Source of the DNA: Candidatus Woesearchaeota archaeon
GTDB lineage: Archaea; Nanobdellota; Nanobdellia; SCGC-AAA011-G17; PNOQ01
Assembly: GCA_018652625.1 (NCBI GenBank)
Contig: JABIBT010000028.1
Span: 1-38,262 of the forward strand
Direction: 5' to 3'
Length of the DNA: 38,262 nucleotides
Below, in pieces: positions 1 through 37,981 of this stretch. The stretch's first letter is position 1, and each line of letters starts with the position of its first letter. The notes beneath the pieces were generated by a model, which did no database searches, was not told the DNA's origin, and saw nothing but the letters and a program-made list of their open reading frames with translations. Position numbers and translations under genes: made by a program.

Positions 1-2
1 AA

Positions 3-347
3 AGCGGTTCTGTAGAGTATTCCAATGTTCTTAGGGTAGAAATTACGAATACTGTCTTTAAATCTAATGGAAGAATAAAAGAAACTTTTTTTACGTATAA
101 TACACCAGATTATTTAACCGATTCGCACCCTGCAATAAAATTTGAGAATGGGAGAGAATTGTTGATGGAGTTATCTCATGTTTTGAGAGAATATAGGAAA
201 GACTCAGGGATTTTGGATGCTAGGTTTGAGTTTATAAATGTTGGAGTAATTCATCCTACCTTAGTTGAAATTACTGAAAAGAAAAATATTTCTGAAGGAA
301 TGGCTAAGGAATTACAAACGATATTGGAAGAAAGATTGAGTTCTTAG
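3..347 (+). CDS. hypothetical protein, 5' end cut by window edge
   Basis: Frame 3 is open from nt 3 to the TAG at 345-347. The track ORF 159..347 is only the tail, starting at an internal TTG. No recognisable motif. Confidence 0.4.
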   Translation, partial: SGSVEYSNVLRVEITNTVFKSNGRIKETFFTYNTPDYLTDSHPAIKFENGRELLMELSHVLREYRKDSGILDARFEFINVGVIHPTLVEITEKKNISEGMAKELQTILEERLSS

Positions 348-348
348 T

Positions 349-1533
349 TTACTTTCCTAAAATTAATTCTATAATATCTAAATGTTTTAGTTGATGGTCT
401 TTTCCTATAGTTCTTTTTGTTTTTACGTCTATTGCTCTTATGAATTTCTTTCCAAAATCGGTGTGTAATCTAAATGCAAAATCTAATGCAGTTGTTCCTT
501 CTTTCATTAAAAAACAATCTGGAAGAACATTTCCATCTGAATCTTCTAATTTTGAAACTCCTCCTGGATGGATTGCAATTCTATTTAATGAGTCAAACAC
601 GGCAGTGTCTATTATTTTTTGTACTCCAGTAAAATTAAAACTAGAAAGAACATTATTTTTTATTAATTCTAAACCCTTAGTTTGTTCTTTAGTTAAGTCT
701 TTTTTTATTTCGAAATTGTTTTCTCCAGGAAGGTAATGAATTAGTTTATGTTTATGTGCTTCTTTTAATGCTAATTCTGATTCTGCTGAACAAGGAAAAA
801 TTATATGATTTGGAAATTCTTTTTTTAGTTGTTCATAGTTTTCTTCAGAACCAGGAATATCTATTTTATTTGCTGCTATAATCATTGGTTTTGTTTCTGC
901 TCTTAATTTTGAAGCAAGTTTAAACATTTCTTCTTCTGACCACGAAGTAGGATTTTCTGGTAGATCTTTTGCATATTTTTTAACCATATCTTCAGTTACT
1001 CTTAAACCAGATAACTGTTTTGCTAATGCTTTTGAAATTTCCAAATGTTCTTGTTGTACAGTTCTTGAGAATTTTTCCCATCCTTTTTTTAAGATTCTTA
1101 GATACCACATGTCTAATTCAAATTCTAAAAATCTTACGTCGTTACTTGGACTATAAGATAATGTTGGAACTGGTTCTCCTTTTTCGTTTGTTGAACCAGA
1201 AATATCAACTACATGAATTAATGCATCTGCTTGGTTTAAGTCATCTAAAAATTGTGAGCCCATTCCTTTTCCTTCATGTGCTCCCGGAACTAAACCGGCT
1301 ACATCTAACAATTCAACTGGAACAAATCTAAATTTATCTATTGTGAAACCTTCTCTTGGATTGGATGGTTTTCCATACTCTTGAGCGATATCTTTTATTT
1401 TTACGTGTCCTGCTCCCCGGTTTGGTTTTATTGTTGTGAATGGGTAATTAGCTATGTCTATATCTGCTAGAGTCATTGCTTTAAAGAAAGTTGATTTTCC
1501 TGATGATGGTTTTCCCACGATTCCAATTAACAT
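349..1533 (-). CDS. YchF/Obg-family translation-associated GTPase with C-terminal TGS-like domain
   Basis: N-terminal P-loop [15 protein letters not shown] (DxxG) and NKID (NKxD). The C-terminal segment [43 protein letters not shown] is TGS-like. Overall pattern resembles the archaeal MJ1332/PH0525-type GTPases as I recall them. Confidence 0.85.
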
Positions 1534-1582: not shown

Positions 1583-1924
1583 ATGAGAAGCATATTGCGT
1601 TCTAAAATCCATAAGGCTACTGTAACTGAAGCTGACTTAGGCTATGTAGGTAGTATAACCATTGATGAAGATTTAATTGATAAGGTTGGTTTTATGGACG
1701 GTGAAAAAGTTTTGGTAGTTGATAATACTAACGGTGCTAGGCTAGAAACTTATGTAATAGTTGGTGAGAGAGGTTCTGGAATAATATGTATGAATGGAGC
1801 AGCAGCACATCTGATAAAAAAAGGTGATGAAATCATCATCATGGGTTTTGAGTTGACTGATAAACCAATTAAATCTAAAAATATTTTAGTTGATGAAAAT
1901 AATAAATTTGTGAGATATTTATAA
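1583..1924 (+). CDS. panD: aspartate 1-decarboxylase (pyruvoyl-dependent, bacterial PanD type)
   Basis: [23 protein letters not shown]|SITID contains the Gly24-Ser25 self-cleavage site. The NGAAAH motif is present and the length (113 aa) is typical of PanD. Confidence 0.85.
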
Positions 1925-2524: not shown

Positions 2525-2634
2525 GAGCCCGTAGCTTAGCCTGGTGGAGCACCGGTCTTATATGACGGTTATTGATTTTGTCAATAGCTTGCTAGGAACA
2601 CCGGCGGTCGGGAGTTCAAATCTCCTCGGGCTCA
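2525..2634 (+). tRNA. tRNA-Ile(UAU) with a 36-nt intron at canonical position 37/38
   Basis: Hand fold: acceptor GAGCCCG/CGGGCTC, D arm GCTT..GAGC, anticodon stem CCGGT/ACCGG, loop CT-TAT-A, T arm GGGAG-TTCAAAT-CTCCT, discriminator A. Exons are 2525-2562 and 2599-2634. The helix CTTA/TAGG flanked by 3-nt bulges TAT and AAC gives a bulge-helix-bulge-like splice motif. Confidence 0.7.
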
Positions 2635-3272
2635 CTTTTATATTCTCCGTACTTTTTCCAGAATTCATATTTTGATTTTTTATAAGGATTGCTTGATCCT
2701 ATTTCACACATCCATTTTGTTACTTCCTTTTTCCCGTGTAACTTTATAGAATCCTTATAGTGACTTAGTATTGGGTTAAATCCCTTACCTCTTAATATTT
2801 TTAGAAGTTGGTTAATTAAATTTGTGTTGTGTGAAGATATTTCTATTATGGGATATGTTCTTTTGTCTCTTTTGTGATTGTTTTTTGTAAAATAAATCGA
2901 TCCGTCAGTATCAAATAACCCCCTTAATACATTGTTAATAAAACCTTTTTTTAGAAACTTGTTTGAGATTATCATTCCTTGTTTTTTTCCATAAGGAAAG
3001 TTTAACTGGTCATTTAAAAAAGCGGAGAATTTTTTATTTGAGAATGTAATAAATATTGCATTTTTGTTATTTCTGTAACCAATTGATATCTTTCTTTTTG
3101 TTATTCTTTCAATGAGATTTTGTAAGTATGTGTAATACTCTCTGTCATTTTGGCTGTGCCCATCTATTCTGATTATTTCTTTGTTTCTATTTTGTGAATA
3201 AAATTTGGATATGCATCCATCTCCTAGTAAGATTCCATAAAATTCTGCTAACTCTTTATTTATTTTAAACAT
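2616..3272 (-). CDS. free-standing double-motif LAGLIDADG homing endonuclease-like protein
   Basis: Two LAGLIDADG motifs are present: FYGILLGDGCI near the N-terminus and LRGLFDTDGSIYF mid-protein. It has its own TATA (TTTATAAA, 3291-3298) about 20 nt upstream of the ATG at 3272. The last 6 codons and the TGA stop are antisense to the tRNA 3' end. Confidence 0.8.
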   Translation of the reverse strand: MFKINKELAEFYGILLGDGCISKFYSQNRNKEIIRIDGHSQNDREYYTYLQNLIERITKRKISIGYRNNKNAIFITFSNKKFSAFLNDQLNFPYGKKQGMIISNKFLKKGFINNVLRGLFDTDGSIYFTKNNHKRDKRTYPIIEISSHNTNLINQLLKILRGKGFNPILSHYKDSIKLHGKKEVTKWMCEIGSSNPYKKSKYEFWKKYGEYKSEPEEI

Positions 3273-5284: not shown

Positions 5285-6754
5285 ATTCCCGTTGATCCTG
5301 CGGGAGGTTGCTGCTATTGGAATTCGAATTAGCCATGCAAGTCAGGGGGTTTTCGGACCACCGGCGAAAGGCTCAGTAACACGTCAATAATCTGCCCTTA
5401 GATTGGGGATAACTTCGGGAAACTGAAGCTAATACCCAATACGAGATAGATACTGGAAAGTTCTTTCTCTGAAACGTAAGGTCTAAGGATGAGTTGGCGG
5501 CTGATTAGGCTGTTGGTGAGGTAACGGCTCACCAAACCGATGATCAGTAGGGGAGATGAGAGTCTTAGCCCCGAGAAGGACACGGAGGTACTTGTCCTAG
5601 TCCTAAGGGACGCAGCAGGCACGGAACCTTTACAATGCACGAAAGTGTGATAAGGGAATTCCAAGTGCTCTATCAATGATAGGGCTTTTGTCGAGTGTAA
5701 GGAGCTCGTCGAATAAGTGGTGGGCAAGACTGGTGCCAGCCGCCGCGGTAACACCAGCGCCACAAGTGGCAACCATGTTTATTGGGTCTAAAGCGTCCGT
5801 AGCCGGTTTGATAAATTTCTTGTGAAATTGTTCAGCTTAACTGAACAGCGTGCAAGAAAGACTGTCGAACTTGAGACCGGGAGGAGACAAAGGTATTCCA
5901 GGGGGAACGGTAAAATGTAATAATCCTTGGAGGACCACCAATGGCGAAGGCATTTGTCTAGAACGGTTCTGACGGTCAGGGACGAAAGCTAGGGGAGCAA
6001 AACGGATTAGATACCCGAGTAGTCCTAGCTGTAAACGCTGCGAGCTAGGTGGTGCGTATTCTTCGGGAATATGCAACGCCCTAACGAAGGTGTTAAGCTC
6101 GCCACCTGGGAAGTATAGTCGCAAGGCCGAAACTTAAAGGAATTGGCGGGGGCTCGCTACAAGGGGTGCGGCGTGCGGTTTAATCTAATTACACACAGAG
6201 AATCTCACCAGCAGCGACGGCAGGATGAAGGTCAGATTGAAGGTTTTACCTGACAAGCCGAGAGGTGTTGCATGGCCGTCGTCAGTTCGTGCCGTAAGGT
6301 GTTGCGTTAAGTCGTATAACGAACAAGACCCATGCCTACATTTGCCATCGTCTTCTATGGAAGGAACGAGCACAATGTAGGAACTGCCTTGGAAACGAGG
6401 AGGAAGGTGTGGGCAACGATAGGTCTGTATGACCCGAATCTGCTGGGCTACACGCGCGCAACAATGGTAGAGACAATGGGATACAACTCCGAAAGGAGAA
6501 GTTAAGCCTCTAAACTCTATCTTAGTCTAGATTGAGGTTTGTAATTCAGCCTCATGACAATGGAATCCCTAGTAATCGGGTGTCAACAGCGCCCGGTGAA
6601 CACGTCCACGAGCCTTGCACACACTGCCCGTCATCCCAACCGAGCAGGGCTTTGGTGAGGTTTATTTTTTTGAATGAATCGAATCTAAGTTCAGTGAGGT
6701 GGGGCAAGTCGTCACAAGGTATCCGTAGGGGAACCTGCGGATGGATCACCTCCT
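5285..6754 (+). rRNA. rrs: 16S rRNA, archaeal, about 1470 nt, no intron
   Basis: 5' end is ATTCCCGTTGATCCTGCGGGAGG. The GTGCCAGCCGCCGCGGTAA motif is present. 3' end is GGATCACCTCCT (anti-SD CCUCC). Confidence 0.95.
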
Positions 6755-6800
6755 ATATTATTTTTCATTACTAAGTGCTTAGATGTTCATACATTATTTT

Positions 6801-6871
6801 GGGCCCATAGTCTAGTGGTAGAACAGGGCGTTTGCAACGCCCAGGCCCGGGTTCGATTCCCGGTGGGTCCA
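6801..6871 (+). tRNA. tRNA-Ala(UGC) in the 16S-23S spacer
   Basis: Acceptor GGGCCCA/TGGGTCC includes the G3:U70 alanine identity pair. Anticodon loop is TT-TGC-AA and the T arm is CCGGG-TTCGATT-CCCGG. Confidence 0.95.
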
Positions 6872-6943
6872 TAACTCAATGCAACTCGATATCCAAAAGA
6901 TGCGGGTGAAGAACTTATTAGTATATCATATTCATAAGTTGTG

Positions 6944-6962
6944 CATAGGCAAAACATACTTG
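6944..6962 (+). promoter_or_regulatory. 23S rRNA processing stem, 5' strand (pairs with 9867..9885)
   Basis: CATAGGCAAAACATACTTG is the perfect 19-nt reverse complement of 9867-9885. Confidence 0.8.
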
Positions 6963-9866
<2,904 letters not shown>

Positions 9867-9996
9867 CAAGTATGTTTTGCCTATGTTTTACTTATTTCTT
9901 TTTAGTAAAACTTTTTAGAATTAGTGAGAGCTATGTTAAATAGTTAGATTTATAAATTGAGATATTTTATCGAAATAATATTAATTGATAATAAAA

Positions 9997-13915: not shown

Positions 13916-13988
13916 GGCGGTGGTAGTATAGTGGTTATTACATACGGTTGTGGTCCGTAAAACCCGGGTTCAATTCCCGGCTACCGCA
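13916..13988 (+). tRNA. tRNA-His(GUG) copy 1: encoded G-1, discriminator A73, no CCA
   Basis: Acceptor GCGGTGG/CTACCGC, anticodon stem TACGG/CCGTA with loop TT-GTG-GT, T arm CCGGG-TTCAATT-CCCGG. A G at 13916 precedes position 1. A TATA (ATTTATAAA) lies about 30 nt upstream. Confidence 0.75.
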
Positions 13989-14151: not shown

Positions 14152-14226
14152 GACGGTGTTAGTTTAACGGTAGAACGTAGGATTGTGGATCCTATAGTCC
14201 GAGTTCGATTCTCGGGCGCCGTCCCA
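14152..14226 (+). tRNA. tRNA-His(GUG) copy 2: G-1:C73 pair and genomically encoded CCA
   Basis: G-1 at 14152 and acceptor ACGGTGT/GCGCCGT (two G-U pairs). D stem GTTT/GAAC with A14, G18, G19 and A21. Anticodon stem TAGGA/TCCTA with loop TT-GTG-GA, T arm CCGAG-TTCGATT-CTCGG. C73 at 14223 is followed by CCA at 14224-14226. Confidence 0.8.
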
Positions 14227-14270: not shown

Positions 14271-15413
14271 ATGGAAACTGTAAAAGGTTTTAAGGAATTT
14301 TATGGCGAGGAAGCTATTAAGAGGAAAAGAGTAAAAGAGATATTAGTTAAGTATTTTACACTTTATGGGTATGAACCTGCTGAAACTCCAATAGTAGAGT
14401 ATGAAGAATTTGTTAAGGGGGATAATGTTAATGATGAAGCCGTCTCAGATATTTTTAAATTACAAGATAGGGGCAAAAGAAAATTAGCTTTGAGGTATGA
14501 AGCTACGTTTCAATTAAAAAGACTGAGTAAGAATAAAAAATTGCCATTTAAAAGATTTCAAATTGGAGAAGTTTTTAGGGATGAGCCGATTTCTGCTAAT
14601 AGGTTTAGACAATTTACTCAGTGTGATGTTGATGTTGTTGGATCTTCTATTAGAGATGAAGCTGAAATTTTGGCTTTGACATTTTTTGTTCTAAAAGAAT
14701 TGAAGATTGATGCAGTAATTAATATTAATAATAGGAAGTTATTGAATGAAATTTTAGATAAAGAGAAAGTTAAAGAAAAAGAAGAAGTAATTAGGGAAAT
14801 TGATAAATTAGATAAACTTCCTGAATCTGAAGTTAAGAAAAATTTAAAGAAGTACAAGGCTGAAAAAGTTTTAAGTATTTTTAAGAAAGATAGTTTTGAA
14901 GAGTATGAGAGCTATAAAGAAATTAAAGAGTTATTGAAATATTGCAAATTTTATGGAATTAAAGTTAATTTTTTACCTTCTTTGGCTAGAGGATTAAGTT
15001 ACTATAATGGTACCGTTTTTGAGATTAAAACTACAAAGATGAAGGAAACTGTTTGTGCAGGGGGTTCTTATTTAGTTAATAGACTTCAGAGTACTGGAAT
15101 TGCTTTTGGTTTGGAGAGGTTATGTGCTTTGTCTAAAGTTGATTTGAGTGAGAAAAATGTTTTAGCTATTGCTTTGGTTGATAATAAAGAAGTTGTTAAG
15201 ACTGTTCAGAGCCTGAGAGACGAAGGGATAATTTGTTCTTTACTCTTTGGGAAACCAAGTAAGGCTATGCAATATGCAAACAGTAAAGGAATTAATTATG
15301 TTTTGTTTATTGGAGAAAAAGAGTTGAAAAGTAAGAAATTTAAGTTGAAAGATATGAAAACTGGAAAAGAAAACAATTTAAATTTTGATAGTTTAATAAA
15401 AAAATTAAAATAA
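14271..15413 (+). CDS. hisS: histidyl-tRNA synthetase (class II)
   Basis: Motif-2-like FQIGEVFRDEPISANRFRQFTQCDVDVVG and LRYEATFQ. The C-terminal anticodon-binding-like region has LLFGKPSKAMQYANSKGINYVLFIGEKE. SD GGAGGT lies 8 nt upstream. Confidence 0.85.
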   Translation: METVKGFKEFYGEEAIKRKRVKEILVKYFTLYGYEPAETPIVEYEEFVKGDNVNDEAVSDIFKLQDRGKRKLALRYEATFQLKRLSKNKKLPFKRFQIGEVFRDEPISANRFRQFTQCDVDVVGSSIRDEAEILALTFFVLKELKIDAVININNRKLLNEILDKEKVKEKEEVIREIDKLDKLPESEVKKNLKKYKAEKVLSIFKKDSFEEYESYKEIKELLKYCKFYGIKVNFLPSLARGLSYYNGTVFEIKTTKMKETVCAGGSYLVNRLQSTGIAFGLERLCALSKVDLSEKNVLAIALVDNKEVVKTVQSLRDEGIICSLLFGKPSKAMQYANSKGINYVLFIGEKELKSKKFKLKDMKTGKENNLNFDSLIKKLK

Positions 15414-19268: not shown

Positions 19269-21164
<1,896 letters not shown>

Positions 21165-21165
21165 G

Positions 21166-21630
21166 ATGATGCGTGGTTTAATTAATCCGGAAAATGCAGA
21201 ACTTGTAATATATCATCCAGAATTACATGCAATAAAAAAAACTTGGCCACTGGAAGGAGTTTTATTTAGAGTTGAAACTCTTGAGTCAGTTGGTGAAGGG
21301 TTATTTAGATATGGTTTGAGATTGACTAACTCTTCTTTAAATAATTTGAGTAATTTGGAGAGAAGATTTTATGATCCTCTTAGTAGGAATATGGATTTTT
21401 TATCTGTTGCTACAGAATTAGCATATAGAAAACATAGAGTTTTGCCTTTTAATATTATTGAGCCAGATATTAAAGAAGGTTTTGATAGATTTGTTGAAAA
21501 TACTTCATTACATATGGATTCAAATGCATTAAAGTCATTATCCTTTAATAGGCGAGTTTTTACATTATCTAAATATCTTGAGATGGCTATCAATTCTAAA
21601 GTTGCTAAAGAAATGGGGTTGAAAAGATGA
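21166..21630 (+). CDS. hypothetical protein inserted between gyrB and gyrA
   Basis: 154-aa ORF starting 1 nt after the gyrB stop and overlapping the next gene by ATGA. No recognisable motif. Confidence 0.5.
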   Translation: MMRGLINPENAELVIYHPELHAIKKTWPLEGVLFRVETLESVGEGLFRYGLRLTNSSLNNLSNLERRFYDPLSRNMDFLSVATELAYRKHRVLPFNIIEPDIKEGFDRFVENTSLHMDSNALKSLSFNRRVFTLSKYLEMAINSKVAKEMGLKR

Positions 21631-22175
21631 TTAAGGCAATTGTATTTGATCTTGCTGGAGTAATTTATACTATGGGATTCTCTTTTCACAAAGAGTTTGA
21701 AGTAATAAGGGGGTATTGGAATAAAGCAAAAGTTGGAGAGATTAGTAATGATGATTTTTTGAAATTAGGTTCTGAAAAATTTAATTCGAGTGTTGAAAAT
21801 TTTGTTAATTTCTTTTGGGATAATAATGAACTTATTCCTGGAATGCAAGAATTAATTATTAAGTTGGGTGAAAAATATAAAATAGGTTTTTTGGCAAATT
21901 TAGTTGAAGAAGTTTATAAAGTTGATATTGATTTATGGGATTTTGAATCTTTTGGAGAGAGTGTTATGAGTTTTAGAGAAAAAGTTAAGAAGCCGGATGT
22001 AGAGGCTATTGAATTGATTATTAATAAGTTGGGTGTTGAGAAAGAGGAGATTATTTATGTGGATGATAAACCTGAAACTATTGAAAAATATTCTGAATAT
22101 GGTGTTAAATGTGTGAAATTTGATAGTAAAAAACAGTTAATTGAAGATTTGAAAAAACTTGGAGTTGAATTATGA
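21627..22175 (+). CDS. HAD-superfamily hydrolase (subfamily IA-like)
   Basis: Motif [11 protein letters not shown], motif III KKPD and motif IV YVDDKPE. ATGA overlaps on both sides. Confidence 0.7.
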
Positions 22176-24553
22176 CAGATAAAGTTCAACAAAGGCTAAT
22201 TGAAGAAGAAATGAAAGAAGCATACATAGATTATGCTATGTCTGTTATTGTTTCTAGAGCTTTGCCAAATGTTTGTGATGGTTTGAAGCCAGTTCATAGA
22301 AGAATTTTGTATGCTATGAAAGACATGGGGATGTTCCATAATAAACCGTTTAAAAAATGTGCAAGAATTGTTGGAGAGGTTTTAGGTAAGTACCATCCAC
22401 ATGGAGATGTTGCTGTTTATGATTCATTAGTTAGAATGGCTCAAGAGTTTAGTTTAAGATATCCTTTGATTAATGGACATGGAAACTTTGGTAGTATCGA
22501 TGGAGATAGAGCAGCTGCTATGAGGTATACTGAGGCAAGATTACAAAGACTTGCTTCTGAAATGTTAGAGGATATTGATAAGGATACTGTGGATTTTGTT
22601 GATAATTTTGATGCTTCATTGAAAGAGCCAACTGTTTTGCCTTCTAAATTGCCAAATCTTTTGATAAATGGGTCTACAGGTATTGCTGTTGGCATGGCCA
22701 CAAATATACCTCCTCATAATCTTTCTGAGGTTTTAGATGCATGTATTGCATTTGTTGATAATCAAGAAGTTTCTGTTCAAGAATTAATGAAATATGTTAA
22801 AGGTCCTGATTTTCCTACCGGTGGAATTATTTTAGGTAAGCAAGGAATTATGCAAGCCCATACAAAAGGAAAAGGATCCGTAAAAGTTAGATCTAAGGTT
22901 GATATTGAAGATAATAAATTGATAATTACTGAGATTCCTTATCAGGTAAACAAGACTACATTAATTGAAGGAATTGTTAATTTAGTAAAAACAAAAAGGG
23001 TAGAAGGAATTTCAGATATTAGAGATGAGTCGGATAGGGATGGGATGAGAGTTGTTATTATTTTGAAAAAAGGAGTAAATGCAGAATTAATTTTAAATCA
23101 GTTATATAAAAATTCTCAATTGCAAACTAGTTTCGGGATGAATATGATTGCTTTAGTGAATAATCAACCTAAAACTCTAAATTTACTTGAGATGATTAAA
23201 TATTTTGTTTTACATAGAAAAGATATTGTAATTAAAAGAACCAAATTTGATTTAAAGAAAGCCGAGAAAAGAGCACATATTTTAGAAGGTTTGAAGATTG
23301 CTTTGGAAAATATTGATGAAGTTGTTAGAATTATAAAATCTAGTAAGGATGTTGAAAATGCTAGAAGATTATTAATTGCTAAGTTTTCCTTATCTTTAGA
23401 GCAGAGTCAAGCAATTTTAGATATGAGATTGCATAGGTTGACTTCATTAGAAACTAAGAAATTAAATGATGAATTAAAAGAATTAGTTAAATTAATCAAA
23501 GAATTAAGAGAGATTCTTGGAGATGAAAGAAAAGTTTATTCTATAATAAAAGAGGAATTTAAAGAATTAAAGAAAAAATATGGTGATGAAAGAAGAACCG
23601 AGTTATTAGATGTTGAAGAAGAGATTGAAGACGAGGATTTGATTAAAAAAGAAAATGTGGTAGTTACTGTTACTCATGATGGTTATGTTAATAGATTGCC
23701 AGTTAAAACATATAGGCAGCAAGGGCGTGGTGGAACAGGTATAAAGGCAACTGGAACTAAGGAAGAAGACTTTGTTGAGAATATATTTACTACAAGTACA
23801 CATGATTACTTATTATTTTTTAGTAATTTGGGAAGAGTTTATTGGAATAAGGCTTATGCTATTCCATCTAGTTCTAGATATGCTAAAGGAATGAATTTGA
23901 TTAATTTACTTAGATTGAGAGAGGGTGAGAGAATTAGGACAATTATTCCAGTTTCATCTTTTGAGGAAGGATATTTGAATATTATAACTAAGAAAGGATT
24001 GATTAAGAAAACTGCTTTGAAAGAGTATGGTAGACCTAGAAAGGGGGGAATTGTTGCTGTTAATCTTAAGCAAGGAGATAATTTAGTTGAGGTCATTTTA
24101 ACAAAAGATGGTGAAGAATTAGTTGTTGCAACTGCTAGTGGTCGTGCTATTAGATTTAAGGATTCATTAATTAGGCCGGTTGGTAGAAATTCTATGGGTG
24201 TTCGTGCTATTAAATTAAGAAAAGATAAAGTTATTGGCGTAGATATTGCCAGAGATAGTTTATTAACAATTACTGAAAATGGATTTGGTAAGAGGACCAA
24301 TATTAAGGAGTATAGTACTATTGGACGTGGAGGTTTAGGAGTTATTAATATCAAAACTTCTGAAAGAAATGGTAAAGTTATTGGTGTTAAATCAGTTAAA
24401 TCTGAAGATGATTTGATGTTGGTTACTAAGAAAGGAACTTTGATTCGTGTTAGTGCTAAGAACATTTCTAAGATTGGGCGTAATACACAAGGTGTTAGAA
24501 TTATGAAGTTAAAAGATGGAGATAAAGTTATTTCTGTGGCTAGAGTTTTTTAG
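22172..24553 (+). CDS. gyrA: DNA gyrase subunit A
   Basis: [19 protein letters not shown] and [10 protein letters not shown] (catalytic Tyr). The C-terminal region has beta-pinwheel repeats. Confidence 0.95.
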
Positions 24554-32680: not shown

Positions 32681-33120
32681 GAAATTTTGATTTATTAAAT
32701 AGCAAGGAAATAAAGAAGTTAAATAAGCAGTTAAAGGAGCAATTTGGAAATGAATTTAATTTTAAAGAATATTTAGTTTTTAGAACACCGAGAGATAGAA
32801 TTTATATTATTAATAAAGAATTTGGAGAACATGACTTTTCTAAATTAAAAATAAATAATCTTGGTTTGTATTTTTTGAGTATTGTTAAGGATGGTTTAAG
32901 GTTGAGTATTGATGGTTCACAATTATTTAAAGCTAAAAAGAATATTTTGGAGTTGAATGAAAGAAATTTTAATAGGTGGATGGTGGGGTTTGATTTAAAT
33001 TTGGAGTTAGATAATGGTTATTTTTTAATTAAGTATGAAGGTGAGTTCTTGGGTTGTGGAAAGTCTACTGGAAATAAAGTTCTAAACTATGTTCCAAAGG
33101 CAAGAAGAGTGAAGTTTTAA
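32677..33120 (+). CDS. NIP7-like / PUA-domain RNA-binding protein
   Basis: Motif order parallels NIP7: MRNF..., DRIYIINKE, NLGLYF, then a C-terminal PUA-like GYFLIKYEGEFLGCGKSTGNKVLNYVPKARR. ATGA overlap with gltX. Confidence 0.5.
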   Translation: MRNFDLLNSKEIKKLNKQLKEQFGNEFNFKEYLVFRTPRDRIYIINKEFGEHDFSKLKINNLGLYFLSIVKDGLRLSIDGSQLFKAKKNILELNERNFNRWMVGFDLNLELDNGYFLIKYEGEFLGCGKSTGNKVLNYVPKARRVKF

Positions 33121-33602
33121 AACTTTATTTCTATTCCTGCAGAGCCTCTGCTTTTTGGAACTTTTTTTGGAGAATTTTCTGGGTAGGTTATAGATTCATA
33201 ATCTAATCTTACTCCAAATCTATCTGAGAGTTCGGCAGTGATTCCTAGCTTGACTGATGATGCACTAACTTCTCTACCTATCTCGTCGTGTATTTTAGCT
33301 AAACTTACTTTCTGTCTTAAACTTAACCAGTTTAATTTTTCTCTTAAATTTAGTCCAAGATATTGCGTGTTTGTCCCTTTGATTAGGGGAGTTCCTTCGA
33401 ATAATGTGCTAAAGGATAATCCTGCCCCTATATAATTGTTTAAAGATTTGTTTACCTCAATTCCTGCTTCATAGTGTCGGTTATTGTTATTTTCTGAGGC
33501 ATATCCTGAGTTTAAATGCACGTAAATACTTGAATTTGCCAAATTTGGTGCAATAAGTACCAAACTTCCTAAAATTACTTTTTTTAATATATTCCTTACC
33601 AT
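33117..33602 (-). CDS. secreted protein with bacterial OMP-like 8-strand beta-barrel pattern
   Basis: Start at ATG 33602, with a TATA at 33631-33638 on the minus strand. Signal-like N-terminus MVRNILKKVILGSLVLIAPNLANS. Eight amphipathic alternating segments follow: SIYVHLNSGYA, HYEAGIEVN, YIGAGLSFS, QYLGLNLRE, LSLRQKVSLA, VKLGITAEL, FGVRLDYES, SAGIEIKF. The C-terminal Phe and hydrophobic residues at -1/-3/-5 resemble the OMP beta-signal. Confidence 0.5.
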   Translation of the reverse strand: MVRNILKKVILGSLVLIAPNLANSSIYVHLNSGYASENNNNRHYEAGIEVNKSLNNYIGAGLSFSTLFEGTPLIKGTNTQYLGLNLREKLNWLSLRQKVSLAKIHDEIGREVSASSVKLGITAELSDRFGVRLDYESITYPENSPKKVPKSRGSAGIEIKF

Positions 33603-33669
33603 ATTTCTATTTATCTGAAGTATATTCTTGTTTATAAGTTTAACTATAATCACTACTTATTAGTAATTA

Positions 33670-34416
33670 TTAAAATAGATTTTTAAACCAATCTAGAACG
33701 TCTTGTAGAATTCCTGTTTTTTCCTCAGATAGTTGTTTTTTTTCTTTTATCATTTTGGTTCTTAGAGAATAAACTTTTTGATTTCCCTCTCCTTCTTTAC
33801 AATCTTTATCTAGATGGGCTAAACAGTCTGGGTCGCATTTTCCATCTTTCTGTCCATCACACCAACTATCTTCATTTCCACTTATACAGTCTTGTGGACA
33901 ATTTTTATAGTTTTCATGAATGTTTTTGTCACAAATCCCATCTGAGTTGCACTCGATTTTTATATATTTATTCTTTTCAGAGGTAGTTATTATACTCCTG
34001 CTACTTTTATCTAGTACTTTTATCTCTTCTAATTCAATTAGACTGTTTGTTGGAATAATCCTATATTTTATTTCAAATCCTATTTCTTTTTCTTCATCCG
34101 GTCCTAATGTGATTTCGTATTCAAGGTATGGCCAGCCTATACTCTCCGTTTCCAAATATTTTATTTCCCCCCCAGGGTAAGAGGTTAATGTTTCCCCCAT
34201 TCCATTATTTATTAGTCTCTGGATAATTACTGTTCTTTGTATGTCTTCGTTATTTTTTATTGTGAATTGAGTTAATTGTGGTTTTCTAACTTCATAAGAA
34301 ATTTCATTAATGTCTTTTGAATAACTTATTAATATTTCGTTTGTTTTTGTAGCTAGTACTACGCTCGATAATAATATGATTGTAATAACTCCCATTAATA
34401 TTATTGATATTTTCAT
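33670..34416 (-). CDS. signal/anchor protein with Cys-rich DGxCD...CPxDC module, coupled to the giant ORF
   Basis: The ATG at 34416 lies 1 nt after the giant ORF's TAA. N-terminus is MKISIILMGVITIILLSSVVLA, followed by a beta-rich middle. The Cys cluster ECNSDGICDKNIHENYKNCPQDCISGNEDSWCDGQKDGKCDPDCLAHLDKDC has 10 Cys. Confidence 0.55.
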   Translation of the reverse strand: MKISIILMGVITIILLSSVVLATKTNEILISYSKDINEISYEVRKPQLTQFTIKNNEDIQRTVIIQRLINNGMGETLTSYPGGEIKYLETESIGWPYLEYEITLGPDEEKEIGFEIKYRIIPTNSLIELEEIKVLDKSSRSIITTSEKNKYIKIECNSDGICDKNIHENYKNCPQDCISGNEDSWCDGQKDGKCDPDCLAHLDKDCKEGEGNQKVYSLRTKMIKEKKQLSEEKTGILQDVLDWFKNLF

Positions 34417-34417
34417 T

Positions 34418-37400
34418 TTAGGAACACTCCAGATAAGCACAGTTTTCATTGAAACATAAATTGGGTATTTCTCCAGTTAGTATTGGTTCATATGGATCAA
34501 AACATCTTATATCAAAGTATCCATAGTTTTCTATATCGTTTCCATTAATTTTTACTGATTTCCATTCGTTGTTTTCGTTGGGATCTAAATCTATTCCTAC
34601 TCCATAATTTATTTCTGGTTTGTTATTTCTTATTATATTATTTTCTATATAGGTATGTATGCCGTTTGTTTCTTCGCCAGTAATAGTTATTTGCGTATTT
34701 TCAAGATAATTTTCTCTTATATCCAGGGTATGGGGGAGGTAACCGGGATTTTCAAAATATATTTTTGTTGCTTCTGACTCTTTGTTATTATAAAATTCAT
34801 TTCTGTATATATTCCCTATTGTTTCGATTTCTCCAGTTATTGCATAATTGTTATTATAGAATTTATTTTCACGAATAAAAAAGTTTCTATTACTATATAC
34901 TTTTATTGCGTTTCCCCATTCAATGAAAGTTATTCCTTCTATTTGTGTGTATTCTTTGTTGTTTGTATTAATTCCAATTTTATTTTCGCAGTTATCTGCC
35001 ATACATTTTATCTCTGTATTTAATCCTTCTACTTTTATATTGTCTGCCATAAGTTTTATTCCTTCTTCTAGTTCATATATTCCTGGACAAAAAGTAGTAT
35101 CTTCGTAGATTTCCATTCCACTAAATGGAACGGTATGCCCACATTCTCCGTTGCAACCAAGTACATTTTCATATGCCCATTCATCCCAACTATCTCCTGA
35201 TCCCCAGCCTTCATAGAACTCCGCATTTTCGTTTCCAATTTCGAAGCCTATATCTAAGAAAAATGGAACCTCTCCTATGCCTGTACAGTATCCTGGGAAA
35301 CCCGCTATGCCAGTTTCAGAATTTAGTGGATCTTCCACCCTATTACCAAAGTCATAGATCACCCATTTACCGACTTGTTCATCCCAAATAAGGTTCCAGT
35401 TATGTATTCCTCCTTGTGAAGATAATACCTGGTGCCCCTCTTCTTCATTTGCAGGATAAAATCCTGTTTTTCTTAATAAGGCTACCGCTGCAAATGACCA
35501 GTCATTACATAATCCAGAGTGTATTGTTCCGAGGGTTTCTTTGGATGATCTTTCTCTTAATTTACATAAACCGGGCGTACCTGGTCCGGGGCAGCTAATG
35601 AGTTCCATGTTTTCATGATATTCTAACCCGGTTAGTGGATCAAAATATGGATTTGCGCAACCCCCAGTATCCCCATATATTCCTCCAGCTGTTTGGCACA
35701 TATCCTTTGCGAATCCTTTCATTGGATGATATGGGGGTAATGTATATCCCTCGCAACAGTATTCTGGCCAAAAGTAATTCCATAACCATAATTCATCTTC
35801 AAGATGATTTTTGGGACCCTCGAATAGTCCCAATCTCAAATTTTTTTCGATATAATTTCTTACACATTCTTTTTCTTTATAGTTAGGATTGGATTGGTAA
35901 ACGGATGTTCTTGCATACTCACATACTTTTGTATTTTTATTATTTATTACTCCATCATTTATGCAACAATCAAATGCATCATCTATTATATAGTCTTGAT
36001 AGGTAGCTTCATCATCGTCAAAATCGGATCTTACATTTATTAATCCACACGAATCTTTTTCTCCAGAATCTATAAGCCAATTATATAGTTTTACAGTATA
36101 CTCTCCGTCTTCATTGTTTTCACAATTTGTATCACCTGGTTCATAAGATGAGACGCATTGACAATTATAACATGTTTCTCCTTGTGAGCAATCGTTATCT
36201 GTTTCACATTCTTCTCCAATCTCAAATGATTCGTATTCTCCCTCATAGGAGGATTGACTTATTTCGTGATCACCACATACAAATCCAAGTAATTTATCAC
36301 AGTTTGTTCTGTCAAATTCAATATTTTCTACTTCTTCTATGTATGCATTATCACATATGATGTCATAATTAATCTGATCTACTATATTATTATATCCTAA
36401 AAAGTTTATATCATACCCGTTTATATATATTCCATTGTGGGCGTTATTTCTTATAATGTTATTTTTGAAGAAGATTTTTCCGGATTTGTATATGTTTATT
36501 GCGGACAATTGTTCGGCCAAGATTCCGTTATAATATGGCCCATCATTATTCCAATTTGGATTTATTTCTTCAATCTTGCTATTTTTTATACCAATTAACT
36601 CGCTGTTTCCTATAAATATTCCGGTTAGTGATTGTTTTACTTCCATATCATCTAGTGTAATGTTGTATGACTCTATAATTTCTATGCCTTTATCGTTATA
36701 TTGATACTCAATATTACATCCTTTTATTGCAATATTTTCTTTGTTATTTATTTTTATTGCTGGTTCTAGCCAAGGCCCTTCACCATCTCCTATAATCTTT
36801 GTGTTATCGCATTCCACTATTAAATTATCCTCTGCTATATTTAGCCACCACCCTTCTATTTCATATTCTCCTTCACAAAAATAAGTATTTTCTGTTATTA
36901 CCATGTTTGGTTCTGGTTCTATACAACAATCTTTATCATTGTAGAAGTTACATCCAATACCGCAGCAGCCGTTTTTGTATGAATAACTGCAATAGCAATC
37001 TGGGTCATTTCCTGAACAACCTTCGGGACAGTTTCCGTTACAACCATCTGATTCACAATCATCTTCACACATTTCATCGGATTGACATAAGTCTATATTT
37101 GTTTCTGGGTCCCACCAACAGCCATAATCATAAAAGTCGTCACAATACCACTCGTTCATGAAACATAAATTTGGATTATCTTCGTAGTAACATATTTCGC
37201 ATTCTCCTACTAGGCCTTCTCCTGCACAAAATCCCCATCCTGGTATATGTGTGCATGTATTTTCTATGCATTCTTTGTGTGCTTCTTGGCATTCACAGTT
37301 AGGATAGGTATTTTCTATAGAATTACAATTTGTGAGTTCTAGTATACAATCTTCATAGTCCAATTCACACAAGTCTGTTCCAGTGCATAGTATTTTTGCG

Positions 37401-37981
37401 TCTTGGCCATCCCAGAAATCTTGAGTGCATTCTCCCCCGTAATATGTACAGTCGTAGTTACATATTCCGTTGACACATTCATATCCCATTGCGCAATGGT
37501 TGTTACATTCTCCACAATGATTTTTGTCTGTAAGGGGGTCTATACATTCTCCGCTGCAATCAAACCAATCATCTGGGCAATTTAATTCACATATACCATC
37601 TATGCAAATCATATTTTCTCCGCAAGTCTGGCCTTCACAACCCTCCTGAGAGCAATCCTCGGAACAGCCGGTACATTCTTCATGAATGACACACCTTTTC
37701 AAACAACTTGGTGGAACATCTCCTAAACTATATTGAACATCTTTTGGAGGACTCAAGGGAATCTCTCCCCCTGCTCTAGATGGCCTTTCACCAGAAAAAA
37801 TATCTCCAGCACATTGTCTTCCTTGCTGCATTTCCCAATCTTCACATTCTCCAACACCACAAGCGCCATCGGCCCAAGGAGTACATTGTCCACAACCTCC
37901 AGATAGTTTTGGACTTTCCTCACAAGAATTAATAATAAAAACACTAAAAATTAATACTATAAGATAAATTTTATTCCCCAA
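34418..37981 (-). CDS. giant secreted Cys-rich protein: lipobox-like signal, Cys-knot region, beta-helix 1, transglutaminase-like core, beta-helix 2
   Basis: TTG start with SD AGGTGAT 4-5 nt upstream. Signal is MGNKIYLIVLIFSVFIINSC. By my hand count there are about 50 Cys in aa 20-356, including DPLTDKNHCGECNNHCAMGYECVNGIC. Parallel beta-helix-like Asn/Ile repeats occupy aa about 360-560 and about 955-1160. GLCNDWS...GGIHNWN...VIYDFG has Cys-35-His-17-Asp spacing. Confidence 0.8.
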   Translation of the reverse strand: MGNKIYLIVLIFSVFIINSCEESPKLSGGCGQCTPWADGACGVGECEDWEMQQGRQCAGDIFSGERPSRAGGEIPLSPPKDVQYSLGDVPPSCLKRCVIHEECTGCSEDCSQEGCEGQTCGENMICIDGICELNCPDDWFDCSGECIDPLTDKNHCGECNNHCAMGYECVNGICNYDCTYYGGECTQDFWDGQDAKILCTGTDLCELDYEDCILELTNCNSIENTYPNCECQEAHKECIENTCTHIPGWGFCAGEGLVGECEICYYEDNPNLCFMNEWYCDDFYDYGCWWDPETNIDLCQSDEMCEDDCESDGCNGNCPEGCSGNDPDCYCSYSYKNGCCGIGCNFYNDKDCCIEPEPNMVITENTYFCEGEYEIEGWWLNIAEDNLIVECDNTKIIGDGEGPWLEPAIKINNKENIAIKGCNIEYQYNDKGIEIIESYNITLDDMEVKQSLTGIFIGNSELIGIKNSKIEEINPNWNNDGPYYNGILAEQLSAINIYKSGKIFFKNNIIRNNAHNGIYINGYDINFLGYNNIVDQINYDIICDNAYIEEVENIEFDRTNCDKLLGFVCGDHEISQSSYEGEYESFEIGEECETDNDCSQGETCYNCQCVSSYEPGDTNCENNEDGEYTVKLYNWLIDSGEKDSCGLINVRSDFDDDEATYQDYIIDDAFDCCINDGVINNKNTKVCEYARTSVYQSNPNYKEKECVRNYIEKNLRLGLFEGPKNHLEDELWLWNYFWPEYCCEGYTLPPYHPMKGFAKDMCQTAGGIYGDTGGCANPYFDPLTGLEYHENMELISCPGPGTPGLCKLRERSSKETLGTIHSGLCNDWSFAAVALLRKTGFYPANEEEGHQVLSSQGGIHNWNLIWDEQVGKWVIYDFGNRVEDPLNSETGIAGFPGYCTGIGEVPFFLDIGFEIGNENAEFYEGWGSGDSWDEWAYENVLGCNGECGHTVPFSGMEIYEDTTFCPGIYELEEGIKLMADNIKVEGLNTEIKCMADNCENKIGINTNNKEYTQIEGITFIEWGNAIKVYSNRNFFIRENKFYNNNYAITGEIETIGNIYRNEFYNNKESEATKIYFENPGYLPHTLDIRENYLENTQITITGEETNGIHTYIENNIIRNNKPEINYGVGIDLDPNENNEWKSVKINGNDIENYGYFDIRCFDPYEPILTGEIPNLCFNENCAYLECS

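What the first reader, a model, noticed from the sequence alone, without database searches (positions are those of the whole stretch)
33117..33602. Bacterial outer-membrane-protein-like 8-stranded beta-barrel with terminal Phe in an archaeal genome
After a signal-like N-terminus the protein consists of eight segments of about 9-12 residues with alternating hydrophobic and polar residues, separated by short polar loops. It ends in ...SAGIEIKF, with hydrophobic residues at -1, -3 and -5 and a terminal Phe. That is the signature of OmpX/OmpA/OmpW-type barrels and of the BAM beta-signal. Archaea generally lack outer membranes and BAM machinery, so such a protein contiguous with clearly archaeal genes is unexpected. 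It could be a horizontal acquisition from bacteria, a barrel that self-inserts into another cell's membrane, or a soluble beta-sandwich that mimics the pattern.
Basis: partly seen in the sequence, partly recalled or inferred. Interest (0 to 1): 0.7.

Follow-up and report, generated by a model that had tools for sequence, protein, structure and literature searches.

The report
OmpA-like beta-barrel gene in DPANN archaeon
A small marine Woesearchaeota-type archaeon carries a conserved, selected gene for an exported protein that is confidently predicted to fold like the 8-stranded outer-membrane barrels of Gram-negative bacteria (OmpA/OmpX), which is unexpected because archaea are not known to make such proteins or the machinery that inserts them.

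Summary
The minus-strand ORF 33117-33602 encodes 161 aa: a Sec-type signal peptide, eight amphipathic beta-strands and the C-terminus SAGIEIKF.

The contig is archaeal (rRNA operon, archaeal RNase P) and not chimeric. The same gene order recurs in at least 24 independent contigs.

A 32%-identical orthologue sits at the same syntenic position in a Candidatus Woesearchaeota MAG. dN/dS is 0.064, like the neighbouring housekeeping genes.

AlphaFold2 on a 3-sequence alignment gives pLDDT 85.7 and an 8-strand meander. The Foldseek matches listed from PDB are bacterial or designed transmembrane barrels plus one LamB complex (OmpA, Ail, OmpX, NspA, OmpW, PagL); most named BFVD matches are phage outer-membrane proteins. 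No soluble barrel appears.

The C-terminal motif S-A-G-[IL]-x-[IF]-[KR]-F fits the beta-signal and is conserved.

By sequence this is a new, tiny family. Pfam OMP_b-brl scores below threshold, and no bacterial homologue was found among 1.84 billion representative proteins.

The gene follows two secreted-protein genes: a 1187-aa lipobox-bearing, Cys-rich beta-helix protein and a 259-aa protein.

Which membrane receives the barrel is unresolved, as is whether any BAM-like factor exists.

Verdict: real and unusual, a new variant of a known fold in an unexpected domain.

The parts
33117..33602 (-). CDS of the 161-aa OMP-like barrel protein, including the stop codon
   Evidence: ORF listing and sequence. 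The start is supported by alignment to orthologues and by the 161-aa gene calls in other assemblies. dN/dS is 0.064 between orthologues.
33534..33602 (-). Sec-type signal peptide, residues 1-23 (MVRNILKKVILGSLVLIAPNLANS|S)
   Evidence: n/h/c regions read from the sequence. The orthologue has AIA|G at the aligned position. No signal-peptide predictor was available.
33498..33530 (-). beta-strand 1 (residues 25-35)
   Evidence: DSSP on the AF2 model, mature residues 2-12; peak in the beta-moment profile.
33444..33479 (-). beta-strand 2 (residues 42-53), starting with the invariant R-H-Y
33396..33431 (-). beta-strand 3 (residues 58-69)
33333..33374 (-). beta-strand 4 (residues 77-90)
33288..33326 (-). 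beta-strand 5 (residues 93-105), containing the invariant S-L-R-Q
33231..33272 (-). beta-strand 6 (residues 111-124)
33186..33218 (-). beta-strand 7 (residues 129-139)
33120..33152 (-). beta-strand 8 (residues 151-161). Its last eight residues, SAGIEIKF (33120-33143), form the beta-signal-like motif.
   Evidence: S154, A155, G156 and F161 are invariant in all three family members. The pattern is polar-x-G-x-x-hydrophobic-x-F.
33631..33637 (-). TATA-like box TTATAAA, 28 nt upstream of the ATG; probably the gene's own archaeal promoter
   Evidence: Read from the sequence. The same heptamer lies 24 nt before the ATG of the orthologue in L002. This is inference; no archaeal promoter tool was available.
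33112..33125 (.). Palindrome AAGTTTTAAAACTT holding the K-F-stop codons of both convergent genes (barrel gene and PUA-domain gene). It carries T4 on both strands.
   Evidence: The 4-nt tail-to-tail stop overlap is conserved in L002 with different codons.
33670..34449 (-). Upstream gene for a 259-aa protein with an N-terminal hydrophobic anchor or signal and a Cys-rich C-terminal part. It always precedes the barrel gene.
   Evidence: It is 50% identical to the syntenic 244-aa protein of L002. Distant homologues carry the BatD and DUF11 domains. It has no Pfam or PDB hit of its own.
34418..37981 (-). First gene of the cluster: a 1187-aa secreted protein with a lipobox-like N-terminus (...VFIINSC), Cys-rich modules, right-handed beta-helix repeats and a weak transglutaminase-like core
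   Evidence: Pfam Beta_helix E 4.2e-6 and Stig1 2.1e-4. Transglut_core scores only E 0.061. It is 47% identical over 1228 columns to the syntenic 1466-aa protein of L002, which begins ...VFIISSC.

Best explanation
The gene encodes a lineage-specific, Sec-exported, integral-membrane beta-barrel of the OmpA/OmpX/NspA architecture: 8 antiparallel strands, simple meander, a polar Gly- and charge-rich lumen and a hydrophobic outer belt.

Proposed mechanism:
1. The precursor is exported through the archaeal Sec system and its 23-residue signal peptide is removed.
2. The 138-residue mature chain closes into a barrel. Both termini and three tight turns lie on one side, and four longer loops (5-11 aa) lie on the other.
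3. The barrel sits in a lipid layer outside the cytoplasmic membrane.
4. There it acts as a small, essentially non-conducting anchor or docking element. It belongs to a conserved three-gene cell-surface module that also contains the giant lipobox-bearing, Cys-rich beta-helix protein and the 259-aa protein.
5. Insertion is either spontaneous, as small 8-stranded OMPs manage in vitro, or uses a still unidentified factor that reads the conserved C-terminal S-A-G-h-x-h-[KR]-F strand.

The receiving membrane is unresolved. My leaning is a membrane that is not the archaeon's own cytoplasmic membrane: either the envelope of a partner or host cell contacted by the adhesin-like module, or an unrecognised second membrane of the archaeon.

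Shown here: a real gene under selection, archaeal context, conserved synteny, predicted fold, and motif conservation.

Inferred: signal-peptide cleavage, membrane embedding, the inside/outside assignment of the two strand faces, the functional link to the two upstream genes, and the route of insertion.
For: Archaeal contig with a uniform ~30% GC outside the rRNA genes.

Independent assemblies reproduce the locus.

Orthologues P0003 and P0004 (31-33% identity, depending on the alignment) occupy the same position: giant protein, then a ~250-aa protein, then the barrel gene, with the PUA-domain gene convergent and GluRS beyond it. This is in a Candidatus Woesearchaeota MAG and related contigs.

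dN/dS is 0.064, against 0.068 and 0.046 for the flanking housekeeping genes.

Beta-periodicity gives z 2.8-3.7, and the ORF is the top outlier among all ORFs examined.

The AF2 model has pLDDT 85.7 and pTM 0.76. Four of the five models score at least 77. It has 8 strands of 10-14 residues.

Foldseek against PDB gives 42 hits at E<=1e-3. Forty-nine of the 50 listed are transmembrane barrels and one is a phage-lambda tail fibre complex with the barrel LamB; no avidin, lipocalin or FABP appears. Foldseek against BFVD returns mainly phage OMP barrels, with TM up to 0.78.

The only family-library hits are OMP barrel families: PF13505 at E 0.002 spanning residues 13-140 against profile positions 6-155 of 175, plus OmpW and TIGR04565.

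Face analysis: the polar face is the best conserved (41% identity) and is 21% Gly plus E, R and S. The hydrophobic face (30% identity) shows L/I/V/F swaps. Loops are 19% identical. Loops on one side are 6, 7, 5 and 11 aa; turns on the other side are 2-3 aa. This is the OMP pattern.

Residues that flank the tight turns (L54/I58, L90/L93, L125/F129) fall on the hydrophobic face, as hairpin pairing requires (read from the sequence with the strand limits).

The C-terminal motif is invariant and fits the beta-signal described in PMC7383365. The same review documents spontaneous folding of OmpA-type barrels into bilayers.

A signal peptidase II gene (Peptidase_A8, E 1e-28) lies ~2 kb upstream of the lipobox protein in both lineages.
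Against: No experiment exists, and model coordinates could not be inspected. Barrel closure and the outward orientation of the hydrophobic face are inferred from TM-scores and sequence parity.

The alignment behind the model has only 3 sequences, two of them 87% identical. The single-sequence model failed (pLDDT 31).

No family HMM passes its threshold. The orthologues hit nothing. The family profile finds no OMP among PDB sequences. hhalign against E. coli OmpX and OmpA gives probabilities below 1%.

Several conserved polar residues (K52, E88, Q97) fall on the nominally lipid-facing side.

No Omp85/BamA, POTRA, Skp/SurA or Lol gene appears in the ~45 kb that could be read, and the rest of the genome was out of reach.

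No outer membrane has been reported for Woesearchaeota in the papers searched.

An alternating pattern alone is equally compatible with a soluble barrel.
Confidence: 0.6

Rival explanations
1. A soluble, secreted 8-stranded up-and-down barrel (avidin- or calycin-like) whose hydrophobic face lines an internal pocket. It could, for example, bind or shuttle lipids or another hydrophobic ligand that a lipid-auxotrophic DPANN cell must scavenge.
For: The amphipathic alternation cannot by itself say which face is inside. There is a signal peptide but no demonstrated target membrane. DPANN archaea obtain lipids from hosts (PMC6349945). Conserved polar residues lie on the 'hydrophobic' face.
Against: None of the 50 listed Foldseek PDB hits is a soluble barrel, although avidins, lipocalins and FABPs are (from general knowledge, not checked here) abundant in PDB. 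Strands are 10-14 residues long with no helices. The polar face is 21% Gly and is the more conserved face, which is the opposite of what a solvent-exposed surface should show. The C-terminal beta-signal-like motif is invariant. The only HMM hits are membrane-barrel families.
Confidence: 0.17
2. A bacterial OMP gene present through contamination, chimeric assembly or recent horizontal transfer, with no function in the archaeon.
For: The fold is typical of bacteria. DPANN genomes hold many bacterial-type genes (PMC8204110), and this locus has LspA, PanD and gyrase.
Against: The contig is 99.96% identical to an independent assembly across both junctions. The same order occurs in at least 24 contigs from many samples. 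Synteny is conserved in a species whose housekeeping neighbours are only 73-80% identical. GC content matches the flanks. A TATA-like box is conserved upstream. dN/dS is 0.064. No bacterial, plasmid or phage homologue was found by phmmer over 1.84 billion representatives, by profile search over 5.8 billion clusters, or by tblastn.
Confidence: 0.03
3. A beta-rich subunit of an extracellular filament or sheath (a beta-sandwich with strand exchange), not a closed barrel. The AF2 barrel would then be an artefact of the amphipathic repeat pattern.
For: Archaeal surface filaments built of beta-rich, signal-peptide-bearing subunits exist (general knowledge). The alignment is very shallow, and one of the five AF2 models was poor (40.8).
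Against: Four of the five models agree at pLDDT 77-86. The model reaches TM 0.82 and rmsd 2.4 A against a closed designed barrel. The loop/turn asymmetry and terminal Phe motif are not features of known filament subunits. No pilin or assembly gene lies in the cluster.
Confidence: 0.06

Closest known systems
OmpA N-terminal transmembrane domain (PDB 1BXW, 1QJP; Pfam OmpA_membrane)
   Same: It is the best Foldseek match (E 3.4e-6; TMq 0.63-0.65). Both have 8 antiparallel strands in a simple meander, short turns on the side of the termini and longer loops on the other. In my reading both have a polar, charged lumen; for OmpA that rests on general knowledge.
   Different: No detectable sequence relationship: no Pfam hit and hhalign probability 0.5%. 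The archaeal protein is smaller (138 against ~171 residues), has much shorter loops, and has no C-terminal peptidoglycan-binding domain. It comes from an archaeon.
OmpX / Ail / Lom / PagC and NspA/Opa small barrels (PDB 1QJ9, 3QRA, 1P4T)
   Same: Same fold and size class (TMq 0.54-0.61). All have a signal peptide and a terminal Phe. A basic penultimate residue (KF or RF) is, from my own knowledge of neisserial OMPs, typical of that group. These proteins act as adhesins or anchors rather than channels.
   Different: No sequence similarity (hhalign 0.6%; no Ail_Lom or Opa Pfam hit). The protruding extracellular beta-sheet of OmpX and Ail is absent because the loops are only 5-11 aa.
Pfam OMP_b-brl (PF13505), OmpW (PF03922) and NCBIfam TIGR04565 generic OMP barrel families
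   Same: These are the only families that any library reports. The PF13505 match covers nearly the whole barrel.
   Different: All scores are below the curated cut-offs, and the two orthologues do not hit at all.
De novo designed 8-stranded transmembrane barrels (PDB 6X9Z, 6X1K)
   Same: These give the best geometric superposition (TMq 0.72, TMt 0.82, rmsd 2.4 A). Both are minimal barrels with short loops.
   Different: They are artificial proteins, so the similarity reflects idealised geometry and not ancestry.
Phage-encoded OMP barrels in BFVD
   Same: High structural similarity (TMq up to 0.78, E 3.5e-7). They show that small OMP genes travel on mobile genomes.
   Different: They belong to bacteriophages. 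No sequence match was found in the phage DNA collection or in PHROGs.
Bdellovibrio PopA and the radial-oligomer OMP superfamilies (PMC12228718)
   Same: PopA is a predator OMP reported to insert into the prey inner membrane. The paper notes a possible distant relative in DPANN Altiarchaeales and describes an unrelated 8-strand oligomeric superfamily. This is a precedent for an OMP used on another cell's membrane and for barrel-like proteins in DPANN.
   Different: PopA is a 16-stranded plugged barrel. No PopA entry appears among the listed Foldseek hits. Oligomerisation of the archaeal protein was not tested.

Membership tests
Pfam OMP_b-brl (PF13505) / membrane beta-barrel clan | HMM score at or above the curated gathering threshold | tested here: not met
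   18.8 bits against a 28.7 cut-off, E 0.002. The 178-aa form scores 19.5 bits. Orthologues P0003 and P0004 give no hit up to E 10.
Pfam OMP_b-brl (PF13505) / membrane beta-barrel clan | Closed antiparallel beta-barrel of 8 or more strands with nearest-neighbour meander topology | tested here: met
   AF2 gives pLDDT 85.7 and 8 strands. Foldseek TM is 0.82 to the closed 8-strand barrel 6X9Z, and the listed hits are transmembrane barrels, apart from one complex with LamB. This is prediction only.
Pfam OMP_b-brl (PF13505) / membrane beta-barrel clan | Cleavable N-terminal Sec signal peptide | tested here: met
   n/h/c regions and small residues at -3 and -1 occur in all three members. Read by eye; no SignalP was run.
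Pfam OMP_b-brl (PF13505) / membrane beta-barrel clan | C-terminal beta-signal: last strand with alternating hydrophobics and a terminal aromatic (polar-x-G-x-x-Hy-x-Hy/F) | tested here: met
   SAGIEIKF, SAGLAFKF and SAGLAFRF. S, A, G and F are invariant. Motif definition from PMC7383365 and general knowledge.
Pfam OMP_b-brl (PF13505) / membrane beta-barrel clan | Resides in an outer membrane and is assembled by an Omp85/BAM machine | not testable with these tools
   No Omp85 or POTRA gene lies in the ~45 kb readable.
OmpA_membrane / OmpX-Ail-Lom sequence families | Detectable sequence homology to family members | tested here: not met
   No Pfam hit at E<=10. hhalign of the family profile against E. 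coli OmpX and OmpA gives probabilities of 0.6% and 0.5%. Profile and single-sequence PDB searches find no OMP.
OmpW (PF03922) | HMM score at or above the gathering threshold over the full domain | tested here: not met
   13.5 bits against a 24 cut-off. The match covers only residues 49-91.
Soluble 8-stranded barrels (avidin, lipocalin/calycin) | Structural match to soluble up-and-down barrels; accessory helices in lipocalins | tested here: not met
   None appears among the 50 listed PDB matches. There is no helix in the model.

The most novel reading that the evidence does not exclude
This clade of Woesearchaeota makes a genuine transmembrane OMP-type beta-barrel. Two readings are open. (a) The cells have a second, outer membrane populated by beta-barrels; this would be the first archaeal outer-membrane beta-barrel protein and would imply an unknown assembly route. 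(b) The barrel is delivered, together with the giant adhesin-like lipoprotein, into the outer membrane of a Gram-negative bacterial host. Its conserved beta-signal might then even be read by the host's BAM. In this reading the barrel is a molecular grappling point for an archaeon-on-bacterium symbiosis.
Probability: 0.3. Interest if true: 0.9.

Novelty: new variant of a known kind. Interest (0 to 1): 0.7.

Why it matters
Transmembrane beta-barrels with a C-terminal beta-signal are regarded as a hallmark of the outer membranes of diderm bacteria, mitochondria and plastids. A conserved, purifying-selected example in an archaeal chromosome, with no bacterial sequence relative, raises two questions. 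How is such a protein inserted without a known BAM? Which membrane does it sit in?

It bears on three open issues:
- the envelope architecture of uncultivated DPANN archaea; diderm archaea exist in other lineages (PMC8871954);
- whether some Woesearchaeota have bacterial hosts, which PMC8204110 leaves open;
- whether the OMP fold can arise or persist outside Bacteria.

The protein is only 138 residues when mature. That makes it easy to express, refold and test, so the question can be addressed directly.

Tried and rejected
- Single-sequence AF2 was uninformative (pLDDT 31).
- Homologue searches found only three sequence types, all in one archaeal clade. These were word-indexed searches with a single sequence and with a profile, exhaustive phmmer over 1.84 billion representatives, a genome-contig scan and a metagenome-contig scan.
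- PDB sequence and profile searches gave no OMP, only a chance Lpp match at E 1.
- tblastn against plasmids and phages gave no match.
- PHROGs gave nothing meaningful.
- hhalign against E. coli OmpX and OmpA showed no relationship.
- A test for internal hairpin duplication found no convincing repeat. The best hairpin pair gave z 3.2, the others were below 2.4, and the two halves gave z 1.0.
- A search for a second OMP-like ORF in the window, L002 and L013 found none with a signal peptide.
- An attempt to read beyond the window start for envelope-biogenesis genes failed. One protein was not on record, and the other contigs end at the window start.
- PDB searches for the two upstream proteins gave no hit.
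- The transglutaminase-like core in the giant protein scores only E 0.061 and is treated as a lead, not a finding.
- Literature searches found no report of OMP barrels in Woesearchaeota.
- Chimera, contamination and a chance ORF were rejected for the reasons given under the rival explanations.
Full report
WHAT IS THERE

The finding corresponds to a minus-strand ORF at 33117..33602 (ATG start, 161 aa). A longer reading from a GTG at 33653 (178 aa) is what one public gene call uses (P0001).

The window is archaeal. It carries an archaeal SSU-tRNAAla-LSU rRNA operon and an archaeal RNase P RNA. It also encodes NAC, Rpb7/RpoE, S24e, S6e, L7Ae, aIF2-gamma and aIF5B. GC content is about 30% throughout, apart from the rRNA genes.

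IS IT AN ASSEMBLY ARTEFACT OR A CHANCE ORF?

It is neither.
- An independent ENA contig (L001) is 99.96% identical to window 32940-35646 and spans both junctions of the gene.
- The neighbouring 259-aa protein is found with the same gene order on at least 24 contigs of up to 150 kb from many samples.
- Exhaustive phmmer found one distant homologue (P0003, 32% identity, E 1.2e-6). A profile search added P0004.
- Both homologues sit at the same syntenic position in a different species, and the order is conserved: giant secreted protein, then a ~250-aa protein, then the 160-aa protein, then a convergent PUA-domain gene, then GluRS. One of these contigs is titled Candidatus Woesearchaeota archaeon.
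- The flanking PUA and GluRS proteins are 80% and 73% identical between the two lineages. The giant protein is 47% identical, the ~250-aa protein 50%, and the barrel protein 32%.
- Between the P0003 and P0004 genes dN/dS is 0.064, the same range as PUA (0.068) and GluRS (0.046).

So this is a real gene under purifying selection, vertically inherited in a small Woesearchaeota clade. It diverged strongly between the two sub-lineages.

The beta-amphipathic moment of the mature part exceeds shuffles by z = 3.5, 3.1 and 2.8 in the three members, and there is no alpha periodicity. Among all ORFs of at least 90 aa in the window and two related loci it is the top outlier. No second candidate has a signal peptide.

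The N-termini have the n/h/c layout of Sec signal peptides (MVRNILKK-VILGSLVLIA-PNLANS|S; MKYALR-LGTAILATTLWAA-SAIA|G), as read from the sequence.

The C-termini are SAGIEIKF, SAGLAFKF and SAGLAFRF, with S, A, G and F invariant. This fits the beta-signal pattern polar-x-G-x-x-hydrophobic-x-aromatic, with a terminal Phe and hydrophobic residues at -3 and -5 (motif as reviewed in PMC7383365).

FOLD

AlphaFold2 with the sequence alone failed (pLDDT 31). With the 3-sequence alignment of mature chains (A4) it gave pLDDT 85.7 and pTM 0.76, and four of the five models scored at least 77. The model has eight strands of 10-14 residues in strict up-and-down order.

Foldseek against PDB gave 42 hits at E<=1e-3. 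Forty-nine of the 50 listed are transmembrane beta-barrels and one is a phage-lambda tail fibre in complex with the barrel LamB:
- OmpA TM domain (1BXW, E 3.4e-6; 1QJP, TMq 0.65)
- Ail, OmpX, NspA, OmpW and PagL
- designed transmembrane barrels (6X9Z, TMq 0.72, TMt 0.82, rmsd 2.4 A)

No avidin, lipocalin or FABP appears. Against BFVD, most of the named hits are phage-encoded OMP barrels (TMq up to 0.78).

I could not inspect coordinates. Barrel closure is therefore inferred from the high TM-score to closed barrels.

WHICH FACE IS OUTSIDE?

I used the model's strand limits and residue parity.
- The hydrophobic face is L/I/F/V/A-rich. It is 30% identical between lineages and changes by conservative swaps.
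- The polar face is 21% Gly plus S, E and R, and is the best conserved at 41% identity.
- Loops are 19% identical.

A Gly-rich, charge-rich, conserved polar face is expected for the packed lumen of a small OMP. It is not expected for the solvent surface of a soluble barrel.

Connections on the side of the termini are 2-3 residues. Those on the opposite side are 6, 7, 5 and 11 residues, which is the OMP turn/loop rule. Residues flanking the tight turns (L54/I58, L90/L93, L125/F129) all fall on the hydrophobic face, as hairpin pairing requires.

Each strand offers 4-6 alternate hydrophobic positions, enough for a bilayer core. As a caveat, conserved K52, E88 and Q97 sit on the nominally lipid-facing side near the turn end.

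SEQUENCE-FAMILY MEMBERSHIP

The only library hits are OMP barrel families, and all are below threshold:
- PF13505 OMP_b-brl at E 0.002, 18.8 bits against a 28.7 cut-off, covering residues 13-140 against profile positions 6-155 of 175
- OmpW at E 0.071
- TIGR04565 at E 0.04

The orthologues hit nothing. The family profile finds no OMP among PDB sequences. hhalign against E. coli OmpX and OmpA gives probabilities below 1%. No plasmid, phage or PHROG relative exists.

The protein works like an OmpA/OmpX-type barrel by prediction. It cannot be filed as a member of any existing sequence family, so it is a new, very small family.

No bacterial homologue was found anywhere, so recent transfer from bacteria is unsupported. 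Ancient transfer with heavy divergence, or independent origin, cannot be told apart. No internal hairpin repeat was detectable.

CONTEXT

The gene is the last of three same-strand genes.

The first (34418-37981, 1187 aa) begins with a lipobox-like ...VFIINSC (...VFIISSC in the orthologue). It is Cys-rich, has right-handed beta-helix repeats (Pfam E 4.2e-6), and has a weak transglutaminase-like core (E 0.061; a lead only).

The second (33670-34449, 259 aa) has an N-terminal hydrophobic segment and a Cys-rich tail. Distant homologues carry the BatD and DUF11 domains.

A signal peptidase II gene (Peptidase_A8, E 1e-28) lies ~2 kb upstream of the lipobox protein in both lineages, just outside the window.

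A TTATAAA box lies 28 nt (window 33631-33637) and 24 nt (L002) before the barrel gene's ATG. This suggests an archaeal promoter of its own, by inference.

The gene ends tail-to-tail with the PUA-domain gene in a 4-nt stop overlap inside the palindrome AAGTTTTAAAACTT (33112-33125). The overlap is conserved in L002 with different codons. The terminal Phe is therefore not forced by the overlap.

MECHANISM

My best-supported reading has four steps:
1. Sec export.
2. Signal-peptide removal.
3. Folding of the 138-residue chain into a narrow, essentially closed 8-stranded barrel embedded in a lipid layer outside the cytoplasmic membrane.
4. Service as an anchor or docking element of the surface module formed with the two upstream proteins.

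Small 8-stranded OMPs fold into bilayers spontaneously in vitro (PMC7383365), so a BAM machine is not strictly required. The invariance of the C-terminal motif nevertheless suggests that something reads it.

Which membrane is involved cannot be decided here.
- Diderm archaea exist in other lineages, namely Ignicoccus, ARMAN and Ca. Altiarchaeum (PMC8871954).
- Woesearchaeota and Pacearchaeota carry giant murein-lytic surface proteins, and whether they have bacterial hosts is an open question (PMC8204110).
- A predator OMP reported to insert into the prey's inner membrane (PopA) is a precedent. The same paper notes a possible distant relative in Altiarchaeales (PMC12228718).
- No Omp85, POTRA or chaperone gene occurs in the ~45 kb I could read, and the rest of the genome was out of reach.

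RIVALS

- A soluble avidin- or lipocalin-like barrel, perhaps lipid-binding, is the serious alternative (about 0.17).
- A filament or sandwich subunit is unlikely (about 0.06).
- Contamination, chimera or a recent non-functional transfer is essentially excluded (about 0.03).

VERDICT

This is a new sequence family with a known bacterial fold in an unexpected domain of life. It is conserved, under selection and tied to a surface-protein cluster. It is easy to test experimentally.

Noticed in passing
window 2525-2634 (+) and 2616-3272 (-): Rfam reports a 110-nt tRNA that ARAGORN does not call. The sequence reads as a tRNA with a ~37-nt insert after the anticodon loop (CTTATA..., possibly Ile-UAU). 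Its 3' end overlaps the 3' end of a free-standing LAGLIDADG endonuclease ORF on the other strand.
   Followed up: partly
window 13917-13988, 14153-14226 and 14271-15413: Two tandem tRNA-His(GTG) genes lie directly upstream of the histidyl-tRNA synthetase gene. They are identical at only 49 of 75 aligned columns.
   Followed up: partly
L013 3971-4363; L002 2299-2691 (about 6 kb beyond the window's end): A bacterial-type lipoprotein signal peptidase II (Peptidase_A8, E 1e-28) is conserved ~2 kb upstream of the 1187-aa protein, whose N-terminus carries a lipobox-like ...INSC / ...ISSC. This hints at bacterial-style lipoprotein processing in this DPANN lineage.
   Followed up: partly
window 33112-33125: The perfect palindrome AAGTTTTAAAACTT encodes K-F-stop for both convergent genes (the PUA-domain protein and the barrel protein). 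It carries T4 on both strands and may be a bidirectional archaeal terminator. The 4-nt stop overlap is conserved in L002 with other codons.
   Followed up: partly
window 33653-33669 (-); L002 9937-9953: A conserved intergenic motif, TAATTACTAA(T/A)(A/T)AGTAG, follows the stop of the 259-aa gene in both lineages, although the flanking proteins are only 32-50% identical.
   Followed up: no
window 33117-33602 against L002 10001-10483 and L009 248-730: The evolutionary rate is uneven. The barrel protein is 32% identical between lineages whose housekeeping neighbours are 73-80% identical. Within the L002/L009 lineage, however, it is 87% identical with dN/dS 0.064. This suggests an episode of fast divergence followed by constraint.
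   Followed up: partly
window 1583-1924; 19269-24553: The window carries bacterial-type genes: pyruvoyl aspartate decarboxylase PanD, and DNA gyrase B and A separated by two small ORFs (a 154-aa protein of unknown function and a HAD hydrolase).
   Followed up: no
window 34418-37981 (residues ~816-880 of the protein): A Cys...His...Asp stretch (LCNDWSFAA...GGIHNWN...YDFGN) resembles a transglutaminase-like protease core. It scores only E 0.061 against Pfam Transglut_core.
   Followed up: partly
window 1-400 and 5285-9873: Contigs from other assemblies of the same organism end at the window start (L017 and L018). By my coordinate estimate, not a direct check, one contig (L013) also ends at the rRNA operon. 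These look like recurrent assembly break points.
   Followed up: no
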